Made by a program: the position numbers and the translations under genes. Shown here in pieces: positions 2,684 through 40,770 of a stretch of DNA of 64,000 nucleotides. Every line of letters starts with the position of its first letter. The stretch's first letter is position 1. A model generated the notes under the pieces. It was given only the letters and a program-made list of their open reading frames with translations, did not search any database and was not told the origin of the DNA. The stretch lies in sequence record MT887289.1. One strand, given 5' to 3'. The DNA is from Escherichia phage SME50.

Positions 2684-3550
2684 TTGAACTTGCCTATGAT
2701 TTACCAGTATTCTAAAGAGAATGGTTTAGATTTCTGGAAAGAGCTTGATAAGTACCTAGAGATGATTCGCAGCTTCCACAAGAAACGCTACGAAATGATT
2801 GCTAATATGCCAGCAAGTTCTAACCCTCTTGCATTCACACAAGGTGGTCTGTACAAAGGGACTAAGAAACCTACTGATAAGGTTGGTTGGGATATTGTGA
2901 AGTCTTTCACAGCTTCTTTTGGGGTTACTGCTCTTGATGAGTTGTCGGTTCTTGCTGAGGGTAAACGACTCCATGAAGTTGGAAGCTATAGTTTTGCATA
3001 CGATGTTCTGGCATACATTAACATGAAAACTGAGGAGTTTAAAAATGAAGATGGCTTCTTATATGCCGTCTATGGTACTCCAGCAGAATCACTTTGCGGG
3101 ACTCAGCTAAAACAGTTCAGAGATATGTTTGGCGTTATCAAAGGTGTTTCTGATAAGGAATACTTTACAAACAGTTTCCATATGAATGTTGCAGCGGATA
3201 TCTCACCATTTGAGAAGCAGGACTTAGAAGAACCATTCTTCCATATCTGTAGAGGCGGCAGAATCCAGTATGTGAGGGTAGCTAACCCAGAAAACTTACC
3301 AGCACTTAAAAGTTGTATTACAAGAGGCATGTTGAAGGGTTTTTATCAGGGACTTAACTTTGACTTAGCAATCTGTGAACATTGTGGTAACAGACCAAAG
3401 GCTGATGTTGAAGAATGTGAGGTTTGCCATTCACATGACATCTCTGTGATTAACAGGGTGTGTGGTTATCTTGGATGGACTAAGATTAAAGGTGAATCAC
3501 GAATGAACGATGCAAAAATTGCTGAGATTCGTGACAGGGTTTCTATGTAA
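2684..3550 (+). CDS. nrdD: anaerobic ribonucleotide reductase, C-terminal glycyl-radical portion (true exon start probably upstream, about 2600-2640)
   Basis: Zn-ribbon CEHCGNRP...CEVCHSHD and glycyl radical motif RVCGYLGW near the C-terminus; track ORF begins at a TTG. Confidence 0.8.
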   Translation: MNLPMIYQYSKENGLDFWKELDKYLEMIRSFHKKRYEMIANMPASSNPLAFTQGGLYKGTKKPTDKVGWDIVKSFTASFGVTALDELSVLAEGKRLHEVGSYSFAYDVLAYINMKTEEFKNEDGFLYAVYGTPAESLCGTQLKQFRDMFGVIKGVSDKEYFTNSFHMNVAADISPFEKQDLEEPFFHICRGGRIQYVRVANPENLPALKSCITRGMLKGFYQGLNFDLAICEHCGNRPKADVEECEVCHSHDISVINRVCGYLGWTKIKGESRMNDAKIAEIRDRVSM

Positions 3551-31599: not shown

Positions 31600-32064
31600 T
31601 TACTTTGGGTATACACTGTCAAGATAAATGTCAGCTTCCATTCTACGTCTGTTTTTCAGACCATTTGAAGTGACCTTCTTACCTTTGACTGTAACCTTGT
31701 TCCACCACTGCATAGCTTCTGCACAACCTACCTTGTTACCAGCATTGTGGCGCTTGATAAATGTAGACTCCTGCATAGCTGTGATACCGATGTTGTATGT
31801 TTCACTTACAAGTGCATCGAACTCATTCTGAGAAGTTGGAGCCTTGATAGCTTTATTCACTGCTGCAACAAACTTCTCAACATCTGCGAGAAGATACTGT
31901 TCAGCTTGTTCAGCCGTGATTTTCATACCCATCTTAACAGGTTTTCCGTCAATACGGATTGTACCATACCCGATTGTTGGGATTCCGGCAGAGTCTTCGT
32001 AAGCCTCTAACTTCAGACCTTCAAAGAACTTAATAGCTTCTAAACCTTTTCTTGAGAGTTGCAT
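31600..32064 (-). CDS. phage lysozyme (GH24, T4-lysozyme-like; probable endolysin)
   Basis: 154-aa ORF with catalytic-region motif EGLKLEAYEDSAGIPTIGYG characteristic of GH24 phage lysozymes. Confidence 0.8.
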   Translation of the reverse strand: MQLSRKGLEAIKFFEGLKLEAYEDSAGIPTIGYGTIRIDGKPVKMGMKITAEQAEQYLLADVEKFVAAVNKAIKAPTSQNEFDALVSETYNIGITAMQESTFIKRHNAGNKVGCAEAMQWWNKVTVKGKKVTSNGLKNRRRMEADIYLDSVYPK

Positions 32065-33449
32065 TATGCCTCCCCTGCTGGGTTAACTGTAACTGTTGCC
32101 GCATTAGATGTTACAGAGCCACCTGCACCAGTCACTACACAAGTGTAGCTTCCTGCATCAGCAGCAGTTGCACCTTCTTTGGTGTAAGTTGCAGTCGTTG
32201 CGTCTGGGATGACTTCCTCACCTTTCTTCCACTGGTAACCTGTTGCACCAGTTGCCACAACATTCAGCGTTAAGGTCTCACCTTCAGTGATTTCTTGATT
32301 GGCTGGTTGTTGAGTGATGACTGGAAGAGCATTAACGGTAACAGTTGCAGCATTAGATGTTACTGTTGTACCACCTGCACCAGTAACTACACAGGTATAT
32401 GAACCAGCATCGGCAGGGTCTGCTTTAGCTTTCGTGTAAGTTGCACCAGTTGCACTAGGGATGTTCACATTATCTTTCTTCCATTGATAACCTGTTGCAC
32501 CTGTGGCCTCAATACTCAGCGTCAAACTGCCACCTTCATTGACTACTTGGTTAGTTGGCTGCTTGGTAATAACTGGCAAAGCATTTACCGTGACAGTTGC
32601 AGGGTTAGAAGTAACAGAACCTCCAGCACCAGTTACAACGCAAGTGTAAGAACCTGCATCTGCTGGAAGCGCACCAGATTTGCTATAGTTAGCATTTGTA
32701 GCTGATGGGATGTCAGAGCCATCTTTCTTCCATTGGTAGCCTGTTGCACCTGTTGCAGTAACTGATAAGTCAATGTTTCCACCCTCATTAATGGTCTGGC
32801 TAGAAGGTTGCTGTGTAATCACAGGCAGTGCGTTCACAGTAACTGTTGCTGCATCTGAGGTGACACTTGTTCCACCATCTCCAGATACAGCACAAGTGTA
32901 TGAACCAGCGTCAGAAGGTGCTACAGATTGTTTTGTATAGGTTGCAGATGTGGCACTGGAGATATTCTCACCATCCTTCTTCCATTGATACCCAGTGGCA
33001 TTAGTTGCGAGAACACTTAGGGTAAGTGCTCCACCTTCATTGACTGTTTGGTTTGTCGGTTGCTGAGTAATTACTGGTGGCTTAATGGCATCCTTCAACT
33101 TAGCATTCAACATTGAGAACGGTTTAACTCTTGCCAACCATTCACAATACACTGTGTCAACGTCTTTACCATTGATAATTGCATATTGTAAATCCATGAA
33201 GAAGTCAGAAGTTCTCATTTGAGCACCGACGCTGTAAAGCAAATCATCACTAAAAGGAACTTTGTAGTCTGGTTTGTAGTCAAACTTCTTAACCTCTGCG
33301 ATATCAGCTTCAGGCCAATATGAGCTATAGGTGAGTGGTAAAATAGCTTCTTGATATGTTCTAAAATCATATCTCTTACCAGCCTTTACATTTGCGATGA
33401 AGCCCTTCACAAATTCTTTGAAGTCTGGGTAAGTCTTTGCTTTAATCAT
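32064..33449 (-). CDS. Ig-like repeat protein (four tandem Ig-like domains after an N-terminal domain)
   Basis: Four repeats of about 90 aa each carrying PVITQQP...TGATGYQWKK...DAGSYTCVVTGAGG; N-terminal domain paralogous to the upstream 123-aa ORF. Confidence 0.6.
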   Translation of the reverse strand: MIKAKTYPDFKEFVKGFIANVKAGKRYDFRTYQEAILPLTYSSYWPEADIAEVKKFDYKPDYKVPFSDDLLYSVGAQMRTSDFFMDLQYAIINGKDVDTVYCEWLARVKPFSMLNAKLKDAIKPPVITQQPTNQTVNEGGALTLSVLATNATGYQWKKDGENISSATSATYTKQSVAPSDAGSYTCAVSGDGGTSVTSDAATVTVNALPVITQQPSSQTINEGGNIDLSVTATGATGYQWKKDGSDIPSATNANYSKSGALPADAGSYTCVVTGAGGSVTSNPATVTVNALPVITKQPTNQVVNEGGSLTLSIEATGATGYQWKKDNVNIPSATGATYTKAKADPADAGSYTCVVTGAGGTTVTSNAATVTVNALPVITQQPANQEITEGETLTLNVVATGATGYQWKKGEEVIPDATTATYTKEGATAADAGSYTCVVTGAGGSVTSNAATVTVNPAGEA

Positions 33450-35074: not shown

Positions 35075-35446
35075 ATGAAAAACAGAACAAACAAAGGCCA
35101 GTTTAAAAAAGGCCAGTCTGGTAACCCATCTGGAAGACCGAAAGGTTCTCGTAACAAAAGCTCACTTGTAAAAGCTCAACTGACCATTGATAATTCTGCT
35201 GAGTTTGCTGCAAAGTTGTTTGAAGCGATTGTTACAAGGGACGCTGCTAAGCTTGCAGAGTTCGGGTTAAACACAGATGACGTAACCATCAAGAGCATGA
35301 TTGAGGTCGGTAAAACTATCTTTACTCACTCAGCAGGTGAGATGAAAGCACTTGCAGCAGACACTAAGAAGACTTCTGATAATGGTGGTCAGTCACAGAC
35401 AGATAACAAACCAACGTTCTCTGCTGTAGCGACTCTCAAAAAATAA
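35075..35446 (+). CDS. hypothetical protein with basic Gly/Pro-rich N-terminal motif
   Basis: 123-aa ORF; N-terminus KGQFKKGQSGNPSGRPKGSRNK. Confidence 0.5.
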   Translation: MKNRTNKGQFKKGQSGNPSGRPKGSRNKSSLVKAQLTIDNSAEFAAKLFEAIVTRDAAKLAEFGLNTDDVTIKSMIEVGKTIFTHSAGEMKALAADTKKTSDNGGQSQTDNKPTFSAVATLKK

Positions 35447-35458
35447 TTTTAAAAGGTG

Positions 35459-35493
35459 TTGACAGACTCTACAAAGTTGCTCTAAAGTCTGTC
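35459..35493 (+). promoter_or_regulatory. TTGACA box overlapping a perfect 8-bp inverted repeat (GACAGACT-N17-AGTCTGTC); promoter/operator candidate
   Basis: Seen directly upstream of the vWA-protein gene. Confidence 0.4.
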
Positions 35494-35526
35494 ACATCAA
35501 CCAACAATGAGAGAAGAGAGTAAAAT

Positions 35527-36942
35527 ATGAGCGAATTATTTAAACATGCGCACCTTCATGCAGGTCGAACTGAAAATGGTGCTGTAAACCATACTTCATC
35601 AATGTCTGCTCTGGTAGACTTCTACAAAGCCGCTGGCTCAAGCCGTAGCAATGTAGAAATCTTACCAGACCTGTTCTACAAAGCTTTGCGTGAGGATGTT
35701 GATGTTGCAGTTCGTATTTTACTGCATATGCGAGATGTACGAGAAGGTATGGGTGAGCGTAAAGCTTTCCGAACTGTTTTACTTCAAGCGATTGAAGATA
35801 AGGTTTTAGAACCTACACAGGTTCTTCGCATTATGGATAAGATTGCAGAACTTGGTCGTTTTGATGACTTCAAAATCTTTGTAGGTACTCGTTTTGAGAC
35901 AGATGCCTTCAAACATTTAGAAGCAGCATTACTAGACCCTGCAACAGCAGGTTTAGCGGCTAAGTGGTTACCACGAGTAAAACCACGCCACAAACAGTTT
36001 GTAAAACGTTTCTGTAAGTTTGCAAACTTAAGTGAGAAGGAGTATCGCACACTGTTATCTGCACTGTCCGATACGGTTGAGCAAAAAATCTCTGCTAATG
36101 AGTTTGGTAAGATTGACTACAGCAAGATTCCTTCACTCGCTGCTGCACGTTACCAAAAGCTCTTTAACCGTAAAGATGGTGAACGTTACAAAGCTTATAT
36201 CGAGTCACTCTCAAAGGGTGAGGCTAAGATTAACGCTGGTGCCGTTTACCCATACGATGTGATTAAATCTATCAAGTATGGTAATGCAGGTGTTGCTAAT
36301 GAGCAGTGGAAAGCACTACCAAACTGGATGGCAGAGGGTGAAAACATCTTGTGTATGACTGATGTTTCAAGCTCAATGTCTTGGGTGAATCTTGGTTCAA
36401 TCACTGCCCTTGATATTGGCGTATCACTTGCCTTGTATGTAGCAGAACGCAATACAGGTTGCTTTAAGAATGAGTTAATGGTTTATTCAACAAACCCTCA
36501 CTTCATCGAACTGAGTGGTGATTTGAGAAACCGTCACCGTCAGGTAATGCGTCATGTTGAATATGGTTCAACTAACTTACAAGCAGCTTTTGACCGCATT
36601 CTTGAAATAGGTAAGAGAAACAACTTGACTCAGAAAGATATGCCAAGTAAGCTTATTATCTTCTCTGATATGGAGTTTAATCAGGTTGATGGTGCAAATG
36701 GTCGTACAAACTTTGAAGCAATTCAGAGTAAGTACAAAAAAGCTGGATACGAAATGCCACAACTAGTATTCTGGTACTTAGCAAACCGTAATGGTACTTG
36801 CGAAGTATCTGTTAAAGATAATGGTGTAGCAATGGTATCAGGGTTCTCTCCAGCCACTTTAAAAGCTCTGCTTGGTGGTGAGAAGTTTGACCCAATCAGC
36901 GTAATGCTCAAAGCAGTAATGATTGACCGTTACATCTGGTAA
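35527..36942 (+). CDS. vWA (MIDAS) domain protein with large alpha-helical N-terminal domain; candidate Ro60/TROVE-like RNA-binding protein
   Basis: 471-aa ORF; MIDAS-type motif LCMTDVSSSMSW in the C-terminal third; lies immediately upstream of the tRNA array. Confidence 0.45.
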   Translation: MSELFKHAHLHAGRTENGAVNHTSSMSALVDFYKAAGSSRSNVEILPDLFYKALREDVDVAVRILLHMRDVREGMGERKAFRTVLLQAIEDKVLEPTQVLRIMDKIAELGRFDDFKIFVGTRFETDAFKHLEAALLDPATAGLAAKWLPRVKPRHKQFVKRFCKFANLSEKEYRTLLSALSDTVEQKISANEFGKIDYSKIPSLAAARYQKLFNRKDGERYKAYIESLSKGEAKINAGAVYPYDVIKSIKYGNAGVANEQWKALPNWMAEGENILCMTDVSSSMSWVNLGSITALDIGVSLALYVAERNTGCFKNELMVYSTNPHFIELSGDLRNRHRQVMRHVEYGSTNLQAAFDRILEIGKRNNLTQKDMPSKLIIFSDMEFNQVDGANGRTNFEAIQSKYKKAGYEMPQLVFWYLANRNGTCEVSVKDNGVAMVSGFSPATLKALLGGEKFDPISVMLKAVMIDRYIW

Positions 36943-36960
36943 AAAGTTTCAAAAAGGGTA

Positions 36961-36989
36961 TTGACAATGTGTTTGATACCCTTTAATAT
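36961..36989 (+). promoter_or_regulatory. sigma70-like promoter upstream of the tRNA array
   Basis: TTGACA - 17 nt - TAATAT. Confidence 0.55.
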
Positions 36990-37051
36990 GTTCTACATAG
37001 AAACGAAATGAGAGCTTTTCTAAGATACTGAAAAATATTTTAAAAAAGTTC

Positions 37052-37081
37052 TTGACAATCACTAAAAAATAATGTTAAAGT
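37052..37081 (+). promoter_or_regulatory. sigma70-like promoter (extended -10) upstream of the first tRNA
   Basis: TTGACA - 18 nt - TGnTAAAGT about 25 nt before tRNA-Pro. Confidence 0.45.
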
Positions 37082-37107
37082 GGTTACATAGAGTTTGAAA
37101 AGTTTAT

Positions 37108-37184
37108 CTCTGTTTAGCTCAGCTTGGTAGAGCGTTCCGTTTGGGGCGGTAAGGCCGGAGGTTCAAGTCCTCCAACAGAGACCA
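37108..37184 (+). tRNA. tRNA-Pro(TGG)
   Basis: Manual fold: acceptor CTCTGTT/AACAGAG, D-arm GCTC...GAGC, anticodon loop TTTGGGG, T-arm GGAGG-TTCAAGT-CCTCC, CCA encoded. Confidence 0.7.
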
Positions 37185-37191
37185 AATTAAT

Positions 37192-37269
37192 GTTCCAGTA
37201 GACAAAACGGTAAAGTCACCACTCTTTCAAAGTGGATATTTGAGGGTTCAAATCCCTTCTGGAACGCCA
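37192..37269 (+). tRNA. tRNA-Glu(TTC)
   Basis: Acceptor GTTCCAG/CTGGAAC, anticodon stem CCACT/AGTGG with loop CTTTCAA, T-loop TTCAAAT, CCA encoded. Confidence 0.7.
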
Positions 37270-37276
37270 GTTTTGA

Positions 37277-37349
37277 CAGAAGACCAATTGCAGCAAACTT
37301 AATCTTATTCATCTGACACGAAATCGGACAAAGAAGATATTTGGTCTGG
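37277..37349 (+). ncRNA. conserved inverted-repeat element A (CAGAAGACCAA ... TTGGTCTGG)
   Basis: 7-bp closing helix; conserved 5' block CAGAAGACCnnnTTGCAGCAAA; immediately follows a tRNA 3' end. Confidence 0.35.
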
Positions 37350-37360
37350 TCATTAAGAAT

Positions 37361-37437
37361 TGCGGGTATAGAGAAAGGGCGTCTCACATGTCTCATTAGC
37401 ATGGTATCGGCAGGTTCGACTCCTGCACCCGCCTCCA
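37361..37437 (+). tRNA. tRNA-Met(CAT), possibly initiator-type
   Basis: Anticodon stem CATGT/GCATG with loop CTCATTA; T-arm GCAGG-TTCGACT-CCTGC; position 1-72 unpaired (T/C); CCA encoded. Confidence 0.6.
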
Positions 37438-37443
37438 ATTTTG

Positions 37444-37503
37444 CAGAAGACCGTATTCAGCAACAAAATACTTTTTGCGGATAAAAGAAAAAACACGGTC
37501 TGG
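37444..37503 (+). ncRNA. conserved inverted-repeat element B (CAGAAGACCGT ... ACGGTCTGG)
   Basis: 7-bp closing helix around an A/T-rich loop; shares the 5' block with elements A, C, D. Confidence 0.35.
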
Positions 37504-37514
37504 CAATGTATTAA

Positions 37515-37591
37515 GGTTAGGAAGCACATAAGGTATGTGCGGTCGCCTGTTAAGCGAATGGCACAGGGTTCGAATCCCTGACTAACCGCAA
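37515..37591 (+). tRNA. tRNA-Asn(GTT)
   Basis: D-arm GCAC...GTGC, anticodon loop CTGTTAA, T-arm CAGGG-TTCGAAT-CCCTG; 3' end reads CAA not CCA. Confidence 0.6.
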
Positions 37592-37600
37592 AATTTAAAT

Positions 37601-37688
37601 GTGTCGTTATCCCGTAGATGGTAGCGGTGGGGACTGTAAATCCCTTGTCATTGAGACTCGGTAGGTTCGACTCCTACACGGCACACCA
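37601..37688 (+). tRNA. tRNA-Tyr(GTA), class II
   Basis: Acceptor GTGTCGT/ACGGCAC, anticodon stem GGGGA/TCCCT with loop CTGTAAA, long variable arm, T-arm GTAGG-TTCGACT-CCTAC, CCA encoded. Confidence 0.7.
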
Positions 37689-37710
37689 ACACTTAGCGAG
37701 ATACTTAGTT

Positions 37711-38139
37711 ATGAGAGATGAAGTATACAAATCACAACTTGGTATGAGTTTAGGAACTGCACAAAACAGACTAGTAAAAGATTTGCTATTTGATTTTATA
37801 TGTAAAACAAATCAAAATAGATGTTTTCAGTGCGGAAAGGAAATGACTAGGGATGATTTCTCTATCGAGCATAAGATTCCGTGGAGACATAGTGAAAATG
37901 CAAAAGAGCTTTTCTTTTCACTAGATAACATTTCTTATAGTCATCTTAAATGCAACATGAAAGCAGCAAGACCAGCACAGATAAGTGAAAGAAAACCTAA
38001 AACAATTAAACACGGAACTGCGTATAGCTATTACAAAGGCTGTAGATGCGATGCGTGTAGGCTGGCTAAGAATGCTGAGAGTAGAAGAAACTATAGTCCA
38101 GAAAGACGTAGGAAGAAGTATATAAGAAATGGTACATAG
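37711..38139 (+). CDS. HNH homing endonuclease inside the tRNA array
   Basis: CFQCGK...EHKIPW...N...H HNH motif; start moved to ATG 37711 because the track ORF start (37618) overlaps tRNA-Tyr. Confidence 0.65.
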   Translation: MRDEVYKSQLGMSLGTAQNRLVKDLLFDFICKTNQNRCFQCGKEMTRDDFSIEHKIPWRHSENAKELFFSLDNISYSHLKCNMKAARPAQISERKPKTIKHGTAYSYYKGCRCDACRLAKNAESRRNYSPERRRKKYIRNGT

Positions 38140-38144
38140 GTTTT

Positions 38145-38220
38145 GGGGTATTAGTTTAGACGGGTAAAATACTGGATTGTCTCTCCTGAGCCGCGAGTTC
38201 GATTCTCGCATACCTCGCCA
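38145..38220 (+). tRNA. tRNA-Asp(GTC)
   Basis: Acceptor GGGGTAT/ATACCTC, anticodon loop TTGTCTC (one stem mismatch), T-arm GCGAG-TTCGATT-CTCGC, CCA encoded. Confidence 0.55.
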
Positions 38221-38281
38221 ATTTTGAGAGGGCTATTTAGCCCCTCCCTTAAAGAGTTCTTACGAGTATTCTTTAAAGGAG

Positions 38282-38355
38282 CAGAAGACCAAATTCAGCA
38301 AGTTACTTAAAATTTCAAGCCAATTTAATTTTGAAAAATTTAAAACTTGGTCTGG
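38282..38355 (+). ncRNA. conserved inverted-repeat element C (CAGAAGACCAA ... TTGGTCTGG)
   Basis: Same family as A/B/D; A/T-rich interior. Confidence 0.35.
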
Positions 38356-38368
38356 CTCAACAAATTTA

Positions 38369-38500
38369 CAGAAGACCGTTTACAGCAAAACTTAAACAAT
38401 CTATTTCTCCGGTAAAGAAAAGGCGAAGGTTCGATTCCTTCACTCGGCAGATGTCGAGTTGGTGTAATGGTAGCACTTAAGATGATAAACAACGGTCTGG
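38369..38500 (+). ncRNA. candidate Y-RNA-like ncRNA: circularly permuted tRNA-like module closed by an 8-bp terminal helix (element D)
   Basis: Order 5'-helix, CTTAA, T-arm GAAGG-TTCGATT-CCTTC, acceptor-3' ACTCGGC, acceptor-5' GTCGAGT, D-arm GTGT-AATGGTA-GCAC, TTAAG, 3'-helix; the two acceptor halves are complementary to each other. Confidence 0.45.
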
Positions 38501-38507
38501 TAATTGT

Positions 38508-38639
38508 CTTTGTAGATAAGTTATTAAGCTTACCTGTGAGTATGCGACCACAAAGGGTGAAAGGGTAAATTCTAGATTTAAACCCAACAAGGCACATCGC
38601 TACAGACCTTAAGCAAGTCTGGGTAGCTTATCTACAAAG
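38508..38639 (+). ncRNA. structured element bounded by a perfect 13-bp inverted repeat (CTTTGTAGATAAG ... CTTATCTACAAAG)
   Basis: 13-bp perfect IR encloses about 105 nt including an internal CAGACC...GTCTGG hairpin; no ORF. Confidence 0.35.
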
Positions 38640-38649
38640 ATAATTTAAT

Positions 38650-39250: not shown

Positions 39251-39332
39251 CGGGGCGTATCTCAGCGGTCTTCTAAACCGCCGTTAACCGAGTAAGTGGA
39301 GTATGCGGGTTCGAGTCCTGCCGCCTCGACCA
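39251..39332 (+). tRNA. atypical tRNA-like gene (good acceptor/T-arm and a TCT-containing stem-loop, but no recognisable D-arm); isotype uncertain
   Basis: Acceptor CGGGGCG/CGCCTCG, T-arm GCGGG-TTCGAGT-CCTGC, CCA encoded; internal hairpin GCGGT-CTTCTAA-ACCGC. Confidence 0.35.
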
Positions 39333-39346
39333 ATTTTGGATGAAAT

Positions 39347-39695
39347 CATGAAGACTTGTATTAGGTGCAAACTTAGCAAGGATGAAAGTGATTTCTACAT
39401 GAAAGATGGTAGGAGAACTCATTCATACTGTAAAAAGTGTGTTAATGAGCAAACCATAGAAAGACAAAGAGCACTTAAACTTTCAGCTATTGAGTACAAA
39501 GGTGGTGTTTGTCAGGATTGTGGTAAAAGGTATCATCCAGCAGTGTATGACTTCCATCATTTGAATCCTTCAGAGAAAGATTTTAACATTGCTCATAGAA
39601 GAAGTCTTAAGTTCTCTCAGGAGCTTAAGAACGAACTTGACAAATGTGTTTTGCTATGTTCAAATTGCCATAGGGTAAGACATGCAAAGTATTAG
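39347..39695 (+). CDS. HNH endonuclease (zinc-finger plus HNH) inside the tRNA array
   Basis: CIRC...CKKC zinc-finger then HHLNP...CVLLCSNCHRVRH; start moved to ATG 39347 because the track ORF start overlaps the upstream tRNA-like gene. Confidence 0.65.
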
Positions 39696-40682: not shown

Positions 40683-40770
40683 CAGAGGTCAAGTGAAAGA
40701 CCGCTTTGAGTCAACTGAAGACCGTAACAAATTCCACGGAGTTGAGTTAGCGGCACAACTTCAGACCTCT
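40683..40770 (+). ncRNA. inverted-repeat element E (CAGAGGTC ... GACCTCT) containing a GAAGACC block
   Basis: 7-bp closing helix and internal hairpins; immediately follows tRNA-Thr. Confidence 0.3.

What the first reader, a model, noticed from the sequence alone, without database searches (positions are those of the whole stretch)
35459..38640. Ro60-like vWA protein next to a circularly permuted tRNA-like RNA: candidate phage Ro60/Y-RNA module
The 471-aa protein at 35527-36942 pairs a long helical N-terminal region with a C-terminal vWA domain carrying a MIDAS motif (DVSSSMS), the domain order of Ro60/Rsr. About 1.4 kb downstream, inside the tRNA array, element D (38369-38500) contains a perfect T-arm (GAAGG-TTCGATT-CCTTC), then an acceptor-3'-like strand (ACTCGGC), then its complementary acceptor-5'-like strand (GTCGAGT) and a canonical D-arm. 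That is a tRNA-like domain in permuted order, with its ends in the anticodon-stem position and closed by an 8-bp helix. Bacterial Y RNAs of the YrlA type are described as tRNA-like modules closed by a Ro60-binding helix and encoded near rsr. An operator-like palindrome (GACAGACT-N17-AGTCTGTC) overlaps the promoter of the protein gene.
Basis: partly seen in the sequence, partly recalled or inferred. Interest (0 to 1): 0.85.

Follow-up and report, generated by a model that had tools for sequence, protein, structure and literature searches.

The report
Phage Ro60-like protein with partner RNAs
A Felix O1-type phage encodes a protein with the fold of the Ro60 autoantigen, plus four small RNAs in its tRNA array that look like its partner "Y RNAs"; the motif these RNAs share also matches the Class I RNAs of Dictyostelium, which were thought unique to social amoebae.

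Summary

Element D is a circularly permuted tRNA-like RNA with the arm order V, T, acceptor-like hairpin, D, as in YrlA. It fails the Rfam YrlA model and lacks YrlA's GNCGAA motif.

D is one of four paralogous RNAs (A-D) in the tRNA array. All four share a closing module: a helix beginning A-G and ending C-U-G, followed by UUNCAGCAA. This module lies beside DUF2828 genes on the gene strand in very diverse phages. A covariance model gave 93 hits at E <= 1, none on the opposite strand.

The only Rfam family that matches the module is the Dictyostelium Class I RNA, at sub-threshold scores.

Best reading: a divergent Ro60/Y-RNA-type ribonucleoprotein. Expression and binding are untested. The amoeba link is a new, testable lead.

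The parts
35459..35493 (+). Promoter-like site (TTGACA-18-TAAAGT) overlapped by the inverted repeat GACAGACT-N17-AGTCTGTC, upstream of the Ro60-like gene
   Evidence: It is conserved in Felixounavirus relatives, and the A-to-G changes in the left arm keep G-U pairing. 8-bp inverted repeats are not rare in the window. Function not established.
35527..36942 (+). Gene for a 471-aa Ro60-like protein: helical TROVE-like N-terminal ring (about residues 1-265) plus C-terminal vWA domain with MIDAS (D279, S281, S283, T349, D381). Pfam DUF2828 + DUF7788, PHROG 850.
36953..36984 (+). 12-bp hairpin just after the stop codon, overlapping a second promoter-like site (TTGACA at 36961). A further promoter-like site at 37052-37081 precedes the tRNA array.
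   Evidence: These are consensus scans only.
37275..37353 (+). Element A: small RNA between tRNA-Glu and tRNA-Met. Closing module GAC[AGA]AGACCAA-UUGCAGCAA ... UUGGUCU[G]GUC, with a variable hairpin interior.
   Evidence: Repeat families D9 and D17; fold; model R1 36.9 bits (A was in the training set).
37442..37507 (+). Element B: small RNA between tRNA-Met and tRNA-Asn, about 61 nt, with the same module (AGACCGU-AUUCAGCAA ... ACGGUCU-G).
   Evidence: R1 41.5 bits (B was in the training set). Rfam Dicty_Class_I_RNA 24 bits at 37449-37502, below the gathering score of 41.5.
38280..38359 (+). Element C: small RNA with the same module (AGACCAA-AUUCAGCAA ... UUGGUCU-G) and an A/U-rich hairpin interior.
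   Evidence: R1 35.2 bits (C was in the training set).
38367..38504 (+). Element D: about 135-nt RNA with the same closing module (AGACCGUU-UACAGCAAA ... AACGGUCU-G) around a circularly permuted tRNA-like domain. Parts: inner stem CUUAA/UUAAG (38391-38395 with 38477-38481); V hairpin 38404-38420; T arm 38425-38441; acceptor-like hairpin 38442-38459; D arm 38462-38476.
   Evidence: R1 30.0 bits, E 2.4e-6, and D was not in the training set. ARAGORN calls a cloverleaf after head-to-tail joining, against 0 of 300 shuffles. D is conserved in relatives with 3 compensatory pairs in the acceptor-like hairpin. The Rfam tRNA model gives only a partial match of 22 bits, and YrlA gives no hit.

Best explanation
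The locus encodes a divergent Ro60/Y-RNA-type ribonucleoprotein.

Shown:
- The 471-aa protein has the Ro60 architecture: a helical ring followed by a vWA domain with a complete MIDAS motif.
- Four paralogous RNAs sit in the tRNA array just downstream, on the same strand.
- Each RNA pairs its 5' and 3' ends in a 7-8 bp helix that begins A-G and ends C-U-G, followed by a UUNCAGCAA stretch.
- One of them (D) carries a permuted tRNA-like domain like that of YrlA.
- This RNA module travels with the gene across very different phages.

Inferred:
- The RNAs are transcribed with the tRNAs from the promoters at about 36961 and 37052. They are released when RNase P and the 3'-end processing enzymes cut out the neighbouring tRNAs.
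- The protein binds the helix-plus-CAGCAA module, as Ro60 binds the conserved stem of Y RNAs.
- The variable interiors (hairpins in A-C, tRNA mimic in D) tether or block other factors. Candidates are tRNA-processing or repair enzymes, or a 3'-5' exoribonuclease such as PNPase. The particle would then control the quality, repair or decay of structured RNAs, most plausibly the phage's own tRNA pool, during infection.
For: Protein:
- AF2 model pLDDT 88.
- The Foldseek top 10 PDB hits are all Ro60/Rsr/phage Ro60 over about 520-550 columns.
- MIDAS residues are invariant in 51 homologues.

RNA:
- Four paralogues share conserved ends, and the helix base pairs differ between copies while staying paired.
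- In 65 distant DUF2828 loci (768 kb), a strict pattern found 86 modules on the gene strand and 8 on the other strand. Shuffled sequence gave 3-8 for both strands together. 45 of 65 loci have a module within 1 kb of the gene.
- Model R1 gave 93 hits at E <= 1 in 817 kb, all on the gene strand. 57 of them were not training sequences.
- The module also occurs in loci with no tRNA genes.
- D is not in the training set and scores 30 bits.

Link to Y RNAs:
- D has the V-T-AS-D order described for YrlA. The T and D arms are invariant and the acceptor-like hairpin covaries.
- Homologous long RNAs next to the gene in mycobacteriophages and an Enterococcus phage reach 38-45 bits on Rfam YrlA, and they carry the CAGCAA/CAGCGA module.
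- In Listeria phage LP-083-2 the gene lies 1.3 kb upstream of an RtcB ligase gene, as rsr does in Salmonella (my own knowledge).
- A 2025 study of Listeria phage CKA15 found very abundant non-coding RNAs upstream of CKA15_055, a gene with an HHpred match to Rsr. I did not confirm that it is a homologue. The authors suggested these might be Y RNAs.
Against: - There are no expression data for this phage, and no binding data for any member of this protein family.
- The protein has no Pfam TROVE match. A profile of 51 homologues matches Ro60 in the PDB only marginally by sequence (E 0.37, vWA region only).
- D does not match Rfam YrlA at all.
- The module lacks the GGUCCGA/GNCGAA motif that Ro60 and Rsr are said to recognise.
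- About a quarter of the distant loci showed no module at E <= 1.
- Neighbouring protein genes are not conserved, so the effector and the biological role are guesses.
Confidence: 0.7

Rival explanations
1. Elements A-D are decayed remnants of tRNA genes or spacer debris in a fast-evolving tRNA array, with no function of their own. Element D would be two tRNA fragments that happen to lie side by side.
For: They lie inside a tRNA array interrupted by HNH homing endonuclease genes, which can scramble such arrays. Neither ARAGORN nor Rfam calls D as a tRNA.
Against: D is conserved across Felixounaviruses, with compensatory changes in the acceptor-like hairpin. The same permuted layout and the same closing module recur next to DUF2828 genes in unrelated phages, including loci with no tRNA genes. 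All 93 model hits are on the gene strand.
Confidence: 0.04
2. The module is a processing or punctuation signal, for example a ribonuclease recognition site, or a cis-regulatory element in the UTRs of the DUF2828 mRNA. The protein might bind it for autoregulation. On this view it is not the core of free small RNAs.
For: In many distant loci a single module sits 24-65 nt after the stop codon or about 60 nt before the start codon. In the window the elements sit exactly between tRNAs.
Against: In the window the elements are separated from the gene by two promoter-like sites and two tRNAs. Loci carry up to 7 copies in tandem. Some copies enclose whole tRNA-like domains, and in L037 the module replaces the anticodon loop of tRNA-shaped RNAs that have CCA ends. 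That fits stable RNAs better than UTR elements. The matching Dictyostelium RNAs are abundant free small RNAs.
Confidence: 0.15
3. The RNAs are real, but their partner is not the Ro60-like protein. They might serve another phage or host factor, or act as decoys for host tRNA-targeting nucleases, and are merely linked to the gene.
For: Binding has never been tested. The module lacks the known Ro60 recognition motif. In Dictyostelium the protein shown to bind a Class I RNA directly is an RRM protein, Rnp1A/CIBP.
Against: The only feature shared by all these loci is the DUF2828 gene itself, since neighbouring genes differ. Tight same-strand linkage across Gram-negative, Gram-positive and actinobacterial phages is what is seen for rsr and its Y RNAs.
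Confidence: 0.1

Closest known systems
Bacterial Ro60 (Rsr) with YrlA/YrlB Y RNAs (Salmonella, M. smegmatis; Chen et al. 2014, PMC4201824)
   Same: The protein is a ring-shaped helical domain plus vWA/MIDAS. Several small RNAs are encoded within 2 kb on the same strand. One RNA has a tRNA-like domain in the order V, T, acceptor-like hairpin, D, with its ends in the anticodon position, and the others lack it. The T and D arms are nearly invariant while the acceptor-like hairpin varies with pairing kept.
   Different: The protein has no Pfam TROVE match; it belongs to DUF2828/DUF7788. Element D gets no Rfam YrlA hit. The conserved motif is UUNCAGCAA after an AG...CUG helix, not GNCGAAN0-1G. The RNAs are embedded in a tRNA array.
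Thermus phage phiLo Ro60 with Yrl1/Yrl2 (PMC12135203; PDB 9KOP, 9L5Y)
   Different: The phiLo protein is a canonical TROVE protein, and its RNAs were picked by their CGAA motif. Binding and inhibition of PNPase were shown there. Nothing has been shown for this family.
Dictyostelium Class I RNAs (Rfam RF01414; Kjellin et al. 2021, PMC7919456)
   Same: Length of about 60 nt. A 6-7 bp helix joins the 5' and 3' ends, with variable but compensating sequence. The start (A)AG and the end CUG(U) are conserved. The motif (C)CUUACAGCAA follows the 5' strand directly. The remainder is variable and A-rich. It is the only Rfam family that hits these phage RNAs.
   Different: Scores are below Rfam's gathering score (12.8-28.9 against 41.5 bits). 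The Dictyostelium RNAs are nuclear genes with a DUSE promoter and were reported as unique to Dictyostelia. Their known direct binder is an RRM protein. No Ro60-like partner is known there, and I could not test whether Dictyostelium has a DUF2828 protein.
Circularly permuted tRNA genes and permuted tmRNA
   Same: tRNA arms are encoded in permuted order.
   Different: D has no anticodon loop. Its acceptor-like stem is closed by a 4-nt loop, and nothing suggests that the halves are rejoined into a decoding tRNA.

Membership tests
Ro60/Rsr (TROVE + vWA) protein family | Full-length fold: helical-repeat ring followed by a vWA domain | tested here: met
Ro60/Rsr (TROVE + vWA) protein family | MIDAS motif (DxSxS...T...D) in the vWA domain | tested here: met
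   D279, S281, S283, T349 and D381 are invariant in 51 homologues.
Ro60/Rsr (TROVE + vWA) protein family | Sequence match to the Pfam TROVE domain | tested here: not met
   No TROVE hit at E <= 1; the matches are DUF2828 + DUF7788. A profile search of the PDB reaches Ro60 only at E 0.37, in the vWA region.
Ro60/Rsr (TROVE + vWA) protein family | Binds Y RNA and misfolded RNA ends | not testable with these tools
   Needs co-immunoprecipitation or gel-shift assays.
YrlA (Rfam RF02553) | tRNA-like domain in the order V, T, acceptor-like hairpin, D, closed by a stem formed by the RNA ends | tested here: met
   compared with the description.
YrlA (Rfam RF02553) | Score at or above the family's gathering score (69 bits) | tested here: not met
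   No hit on D at E <= 10 in a 161-nt search. Homologous RNAs in Gram-positive and actinobacterial phages reach only 28-45 bits.
YrlA (Rfam RF02553) | GNCGAAN0-1G motif near the 5' end | tested here: not met
   The sequence has UUUACAGCAAA at that place.
YrlA (Rfam RF02553) | Encoded within a few kb of the Ro60 gene on the same strand | tested here: met
   D starts 1.4 kb downstream of the stop codon, on the + strand.
Dictyostelium Class I RNA (Rfam RF01414) | Short helix joining the 5' and 3' ends, with pairing conserved but sequence variable | tested here: met
   7-bp helix, 100% paired in 36 phage RNAs, with double changes in 6 of 7 pairs (the sequences were pattern-selected). The independent model search was strand-specific.
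Dictyostelium Class I RNA (Rfam RF01414) | Conserved 11-nt motif CCUUACAGCAA next to the 5' strand; conserved start (A)AG and end CUG(U) | tested here: met
   The phage consensus is aaAAGGaUgC-UUACAGCAA...GcAuCCUG. The Dictyostelium sequences read GUUGAC-CUUACAGCAA...GUCAAC-UG. Window copies have UUGCAGCAA, AUUCAGCAA and UUACAGCAA.
Dictyostelium Class I RNA (Rfam RF01414) | Score at or above the gathering score (41.5 bits) | tested here: not met
   B scores 24 bits, D 12.8 bits, and distant phage copies 28-29 bits.
Dictyostelium Class I RNA (Rfam RF01414) | Abundant free RNA of about 42-65 nt | not testable with these tools
   The predicted size of B fits (about 61 nt). A and C are about 75 nt and D about 135 nt. 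There are no expression data.
Canonical tRNA | Cloverleaf in normal order with an anticodon loop | tested here: not met
   ARAGORN does not call it, and the Rfam tRNA model gives only a partial 22 bits. A cloverleaf appears only after circular permutation.

The most novel reading that the evidence does not exclude
The phage RNAs and the Dictyostelium Class I RNAs may be one RNA family. They would be the partner ('Y-like') RNAs of the DUF2828 branch of the Ro60 superfamily. That branch also occurs in giant viruses, and papers mention it in plants and in mimivirus-like sequences.

If so, Class I RNAs are not an invention of social amoebae, and their long-unknown function would be that of a Ro60-type RNP. 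Eukaryotic DUF2828 proteins would be RNA-binding proteins with unrecognised small-RNA partners. [quoted passage not shown]
Probability: 0.35. Interest if true: 0.95.

Novelty: new variant of a known kind. Interest (0 to 1): 0.85.

Why it matters
Ro60 and its Y RNAs are a conserved but poorly understood RNA quality-control system, and a human autoantigen.

This locus shows a second, sequence-divergent branch of that system. The gene was found in 709 of 50,697 phage records, including phages of Salmonella, E. coli, Vibrio, Listeria, Staphylococcus, Campylobacter, Enterococcus and Mycobacterium. It comes with a simple, well-defined candidate RNA recognition module and with interchangeable cargo domains, including tRNA mimics in three different topologies.

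It gives a concrete hypothesis for a conserved phage gene so far labelled only 'RNA-binding protein', 'vWFA protein' or 'hypothetical protein'. It also gives one for unexplained spacers in phage tRNA arrays.

The match of the module to Dictyostelium Class I RNAs is unexpected. Those RNAs are abundant, are needed for normal development, have no known function and were reported as unique to Dictyostelia. The match turns their function into a testable question.

Tried and rejected
- Pairing scheme. I first paired each GGTCTGG with the next CAGAAGACC, which would enclose tRNA-Met like a YrlA. I rejected this because the flanking bases covary only in the scheme 5' CAGAAGACC ... GGTCTGG 3'.
- Rfam scans. 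Gathering-score scans of the window and of 10 distant loci found only tRNAs and one permuted tmRNA. They found no YrlA, no Y_RNA and no Class I hit above threshold.
- PDB by sequence. Searches with the protein and with a 51-sequence profile gave nothing convincing. Only fold comparison showed the Ro60 relationship.
- NCBIfam gave no match.
- Literature. Searches for DUF2828 found only plant papers and one tardigrade paper. No paper in the library combined Class I RNA with phage or Ro60. One search on Felixounavirus was uninformative. Several key papers are not held: Burroughs and Aravind 2016, Sim et al. 2020, Avesson 2011 and Aspegren 2004.
- Dictyostelium DUF2828. I could not test whether Dictyostelium has a DUF2828 protein. 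The AlphaFold-database library was unavailable. Peptide and gene-id searches in the supplements of Kjellin et al. found nothing relevant.
- Gene neighbourhoods of two distant homologues showed no conserved protein partner.
- The palindrome as a statistically unusual feature: rejected.

Full report
**What the window is.** The region is 92-97% identical to Felix O1-type phages of Salmonella and E. coli (Felixounavirus). The ORF at 35527-36942 sits directly upstream of an array of 25 tRNA genes, all on the + strand and interrupted by HNH endonuclease ORFs. Public records label the ORF 'hypothetical protein', 'vWFA protein' or 'RNA-binding protein'.

**The protein.**
- Pfam finds DUF7788 (E 2e-43) and DUF2828 (E 5e-29), plus a sub-threshold VWA_2 match. 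It finds no TROVE domain. PHROGs places the protein in phrog_850, 'RNA-binding protein'.
- Sequence searches of the PDB are uninformative. A 51-sequence profile touches Ro60 only at E 0.37, around the MIDAS motif.
- An AlphaFold2 model built on that alignment is confident, with pLDDT 88 and pTM 0.87.
- Foldseek against the PDB returns Ro60 for all ten best hits: Xenopus and human Ro60, D. radiodurans Rsr and Thermus phage phiLo Ro60. These align over 514-554 columns at E 1e-8 to 1e-7. Only vWA-domain matches follow.
- The MIDAS residues D279, S281, S283, T349 and D381 are invariant, as are many Arg and Lys residues in the helical part.

The protein has the Ro60 fold but belongs to a distinct sequence family.

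That family is large. tblastn finds it in 709 of 50,697 phage records. Fold search of viral models also finds it in giant viruses.

**Element D.** Folding gives the closing helix, a small V hairpin, the T arm, a 7-bp acceptor-like hairpin and the D arm.
- ARAGORN and the Rfam tRNA model do not call D as a tRNA.
- When D is joined head to tail, ARAGORN draws a cloverleaf across the junction, with the 35-nt closing module as an intron in the anticodon loop. It does this for none of 300 shuffled copies.
- Among Felixounaviruses the T and D arms are invariant, while the acceptor-like hairpin changes sequence with three compensatory pairs.

This is the arm order (V, T, AS, D) and the conservation pattern that Chen et al. 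describe for YrlA. Even so, Rfam's YrlA model gives no match to D at E <= 10 in a 161-nt search, and the GNCGAA motif is absent.

**Four RNAs, one module.** D is not alone.
- Repeat analysis finds four copies of CAGAAGACCnnnUnCAGCAA and three matching copies of GGTCTGG; an exact-pattern search finds the fourth.
- They pair up as elements A (37275-37353), B (37442-37507), C (38280-38359) and D.
- Each element folds with the same closing architecture. The three outer base pairs and the inner base pairs differ between copies while staying complementary.
- A-C have simple hairpin interiors.
- The elements sit between tRNAs, 5-9 nt from their ends. Processing of the tRNAs would therefore release them. 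That is an inference.

**The module follows the gene.** I fetched 80 loci encoding relatives of the protein from viral contigs. 65 of them are only 39-47% identical to it.
- Many carry 'orphan' T arms next to the gene in the same permuted layout. All share a YCAGCAA motif just after the 5' strand of a closing helix.
- I scanned these 65 loci (768 kb) with a strict pattern: a helix of at least 7 bp with G at position 2, then 1-4 nt, then CAGCA[AC], with the 3' strand followed by G. It found 86 hits on the gene strand and 8 on the other. Shuffled sequence gave 3-8 for both strands together. 45 loci have a copy within 1 kb of the gene, often 24-65 nt from the stop or start codon.
- I built covariance model R1 from 36 short copies and searched 817 kb on both strands. 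It gave 93 hits at E <= 1, all on the gene strand. 57 were not training sequences, and 49 of the 66 loci searched besides the window had a hit at E <= 0.01.
- D, which was not in the training set, scores 30 bits with filters off (E 2.4e-6).
- The module occurs in loci without any tRNA gene. It also occurs in mycobacteriophages, Listeria, Staphylococcus, Campylobacter and Enterococcus phages.
- Its cargo varies. Most copies are about 60-nt hairpin RNAs. Some enclose permuted tRNA-like domains. In L037 the module replaces the anticodon loop of tRNA-shaped RNAs that have CCA ends. In L061 it extends the acceptor end.

A constant protein-linked module with variable cargo is the logic of Y RNAs.

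**Bridge to YrlA.** In mycobacteriophages Silverleaf and Whirlwind and in Enterococcus phage EFDG1, the long tRNA-like RNAs next to the gene reach 38-45 bits on Rfam YrlA (E 7e-7 to 5e-5; gathering score 69). The alignment shows that the score comes from the T, AS and D arms and not from the stem. These same RNAs carry the CAGCAA/CAGCGA module. The tRNA-like domain is therefore YrlA-like, but the presumed protein-binding part differs.

**The unexpected match.** The only Rfam family that aligns to the module is Dicty_Class_I_RNA (RF01414).
- It scores 24 bits on B, 12.8 on D and 28-29 on distant phage copies. All are below the gathering score of 41.5.
- The consensus sequences nearly coincide. 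Phage: aaAAGGaUgC-UUACAGCAA...GcAuCCUG. Rfam: GaUcuC-CUUACAGCAA...GagAuC-UG. D. discoideum: GUUGAC-CUUACAGCAA...GUCAAC-UG.
- Kjellin et al. define Class I RNAs by these same features: about 60 nt, a 6-bp terminal stem with compensatory variation, an 11-nt motif next to the 5' strand, and the conserved ends AAG and CUGU. They report these RNAs as unique to Dictyostelia.
- No paper in the library links them to phages or to Ro60.
- I could not determine whether Dictyostelium encodes a DUF2828 protein. [quoted passage not shown] It is worth checking.

The resemblance could be homology or convergence, and I cannot yet decide between them.

**Function.** No conserved protein neighbour emerged.
- In Listeria phage LP-083-2 the gene lies among tRNAs, next to a ROOL-like RNA and 1.3 kb upstream of an RtcB ligase gene.
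- In Listeria phage CKA15, the protein CKA15_055 (HHpred match to Rsr) was found in purified virions. Three very abundant non-coding regions lie upstream of its gene, and the authors suggested these might be Y RNAs.
- For canonical systems, Y RNA tethers Rsr to PNPase, and the phiLo RNP attenuates PNPase.

A role in quality control, repair or protection of structured RNAs during infection is therefore the most likely function, but it is inferred.

**The palindrome.** It is present and conserved. In relatives the left arm changes A to G, which keeps G-U pairing on the + strand. Such repeats are common in the window. Whether it is a DNA operator or an RNA hairpin remains open.

**Verdict.** The thing itself is a divergent Ro60-like RNP module with its own RNA family, not a YrlA member. 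Existing annotations and one paper hint at the protein's nature. The RNA family, its breadth and its match to Class I RNAs appear undescribed.

Noticed in passing
window 38508-38642: A further structured spacer between element D and tRNA-Lys, closed by a 14-bp helix (TCTTTGTAGATAAG / CTTATCTACAAAGA). It contains a small hairpin CAGAC-CTTAAGCAA-GTCTG and lacks the CAGCAA module. It may be a fifth small RNA of another kind.
   Followed up: partly
window 38227-38279: Two consecutive hairpins lie right after tRNA-Asp (GAGAGGGCT...AGCCCCTCCC, then CCTTAAAGA...TCTTTAAAGG) and before element C. They may be processing or termination signals.
   Followed up: no
window 40683-40769: The spacer between tRNA-Thr and tRNA-Val is closed by the 7-bp helix AGAGGTC/GACCTCT and contains CTGAAGACC. 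It has no CAGCAA motif and gets no hit from model R1.
   Followed up: partly
window 39251-39329 and 39303-39695: Rfam calls a weak tRNA here (31.7 bits) that ARAGORN misses. Its T arm overlaps the start of an HNH endonuclease ORF. A relative annotates a tRNA-Arg at a similar position in its array. This looks like a homing endonuclease gene inserted at a tRNA gene.
   Followed up: no
window 32064-33449 (-): A 461-aa ORF with four tandem repeats of about 85 aa (ALPVITQQP...GATGYQWKK...GSYTC), typical of Ig-like domains. It may be a capsid- or tail-decoration protein.
   Followed up: no
L037 7895-8015 and 8025-8137: Two tRNA-shaped RNAs with normal arm order and encoded CCA ends (Rfam tRNA 56.9 and 40.9 bits). 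Their anticodon loop is replaced by a roughly 50-nt insert carrying the CAGCA module as a capped hairpin. This is the un-permuted counterpart of element D.
   Followed up: partly
L083 1929-2480 (Listeria phage LP-083-2): A ROOL-like RNA (87 bits, just under the gathering score of 99) lies 1 kb upstream of the DUF2828 gene, among tRNAs. Three CAGCAA-module RNAs (3123-3385) lie between it and the gene, and an RtcB ligase gene lies 1.3 kb downstream of the gene.
   Followed up: partly
L052 2000-2281: A permuted tmRNA (90.9 bits) is encoded about 1.9 kb upstream of a DUF2828 gene in a metagenomic phage contig.
   Followed up: no
L085 2330-2400, 2540-2590, 2720-2770 (Enterococcus phage EFDG1): Each of the three module RNAs upstream of the DUF2828 gene is preceded by a conserved hairpin (CATAGTTCC...GGAACAT). 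Here the module ends in CUUG rather than CUG, with the start AAAG.
   Followed up: no
window 35075-35446 (+): The small ORF just upstream of the Ro60-like gene is a DUF5681 protein (E 2e-14) with a basic N-terminus. Relatives annotate a DUF5681 protein in this region too. Its relation to the module is unknown.
   Followed up: no
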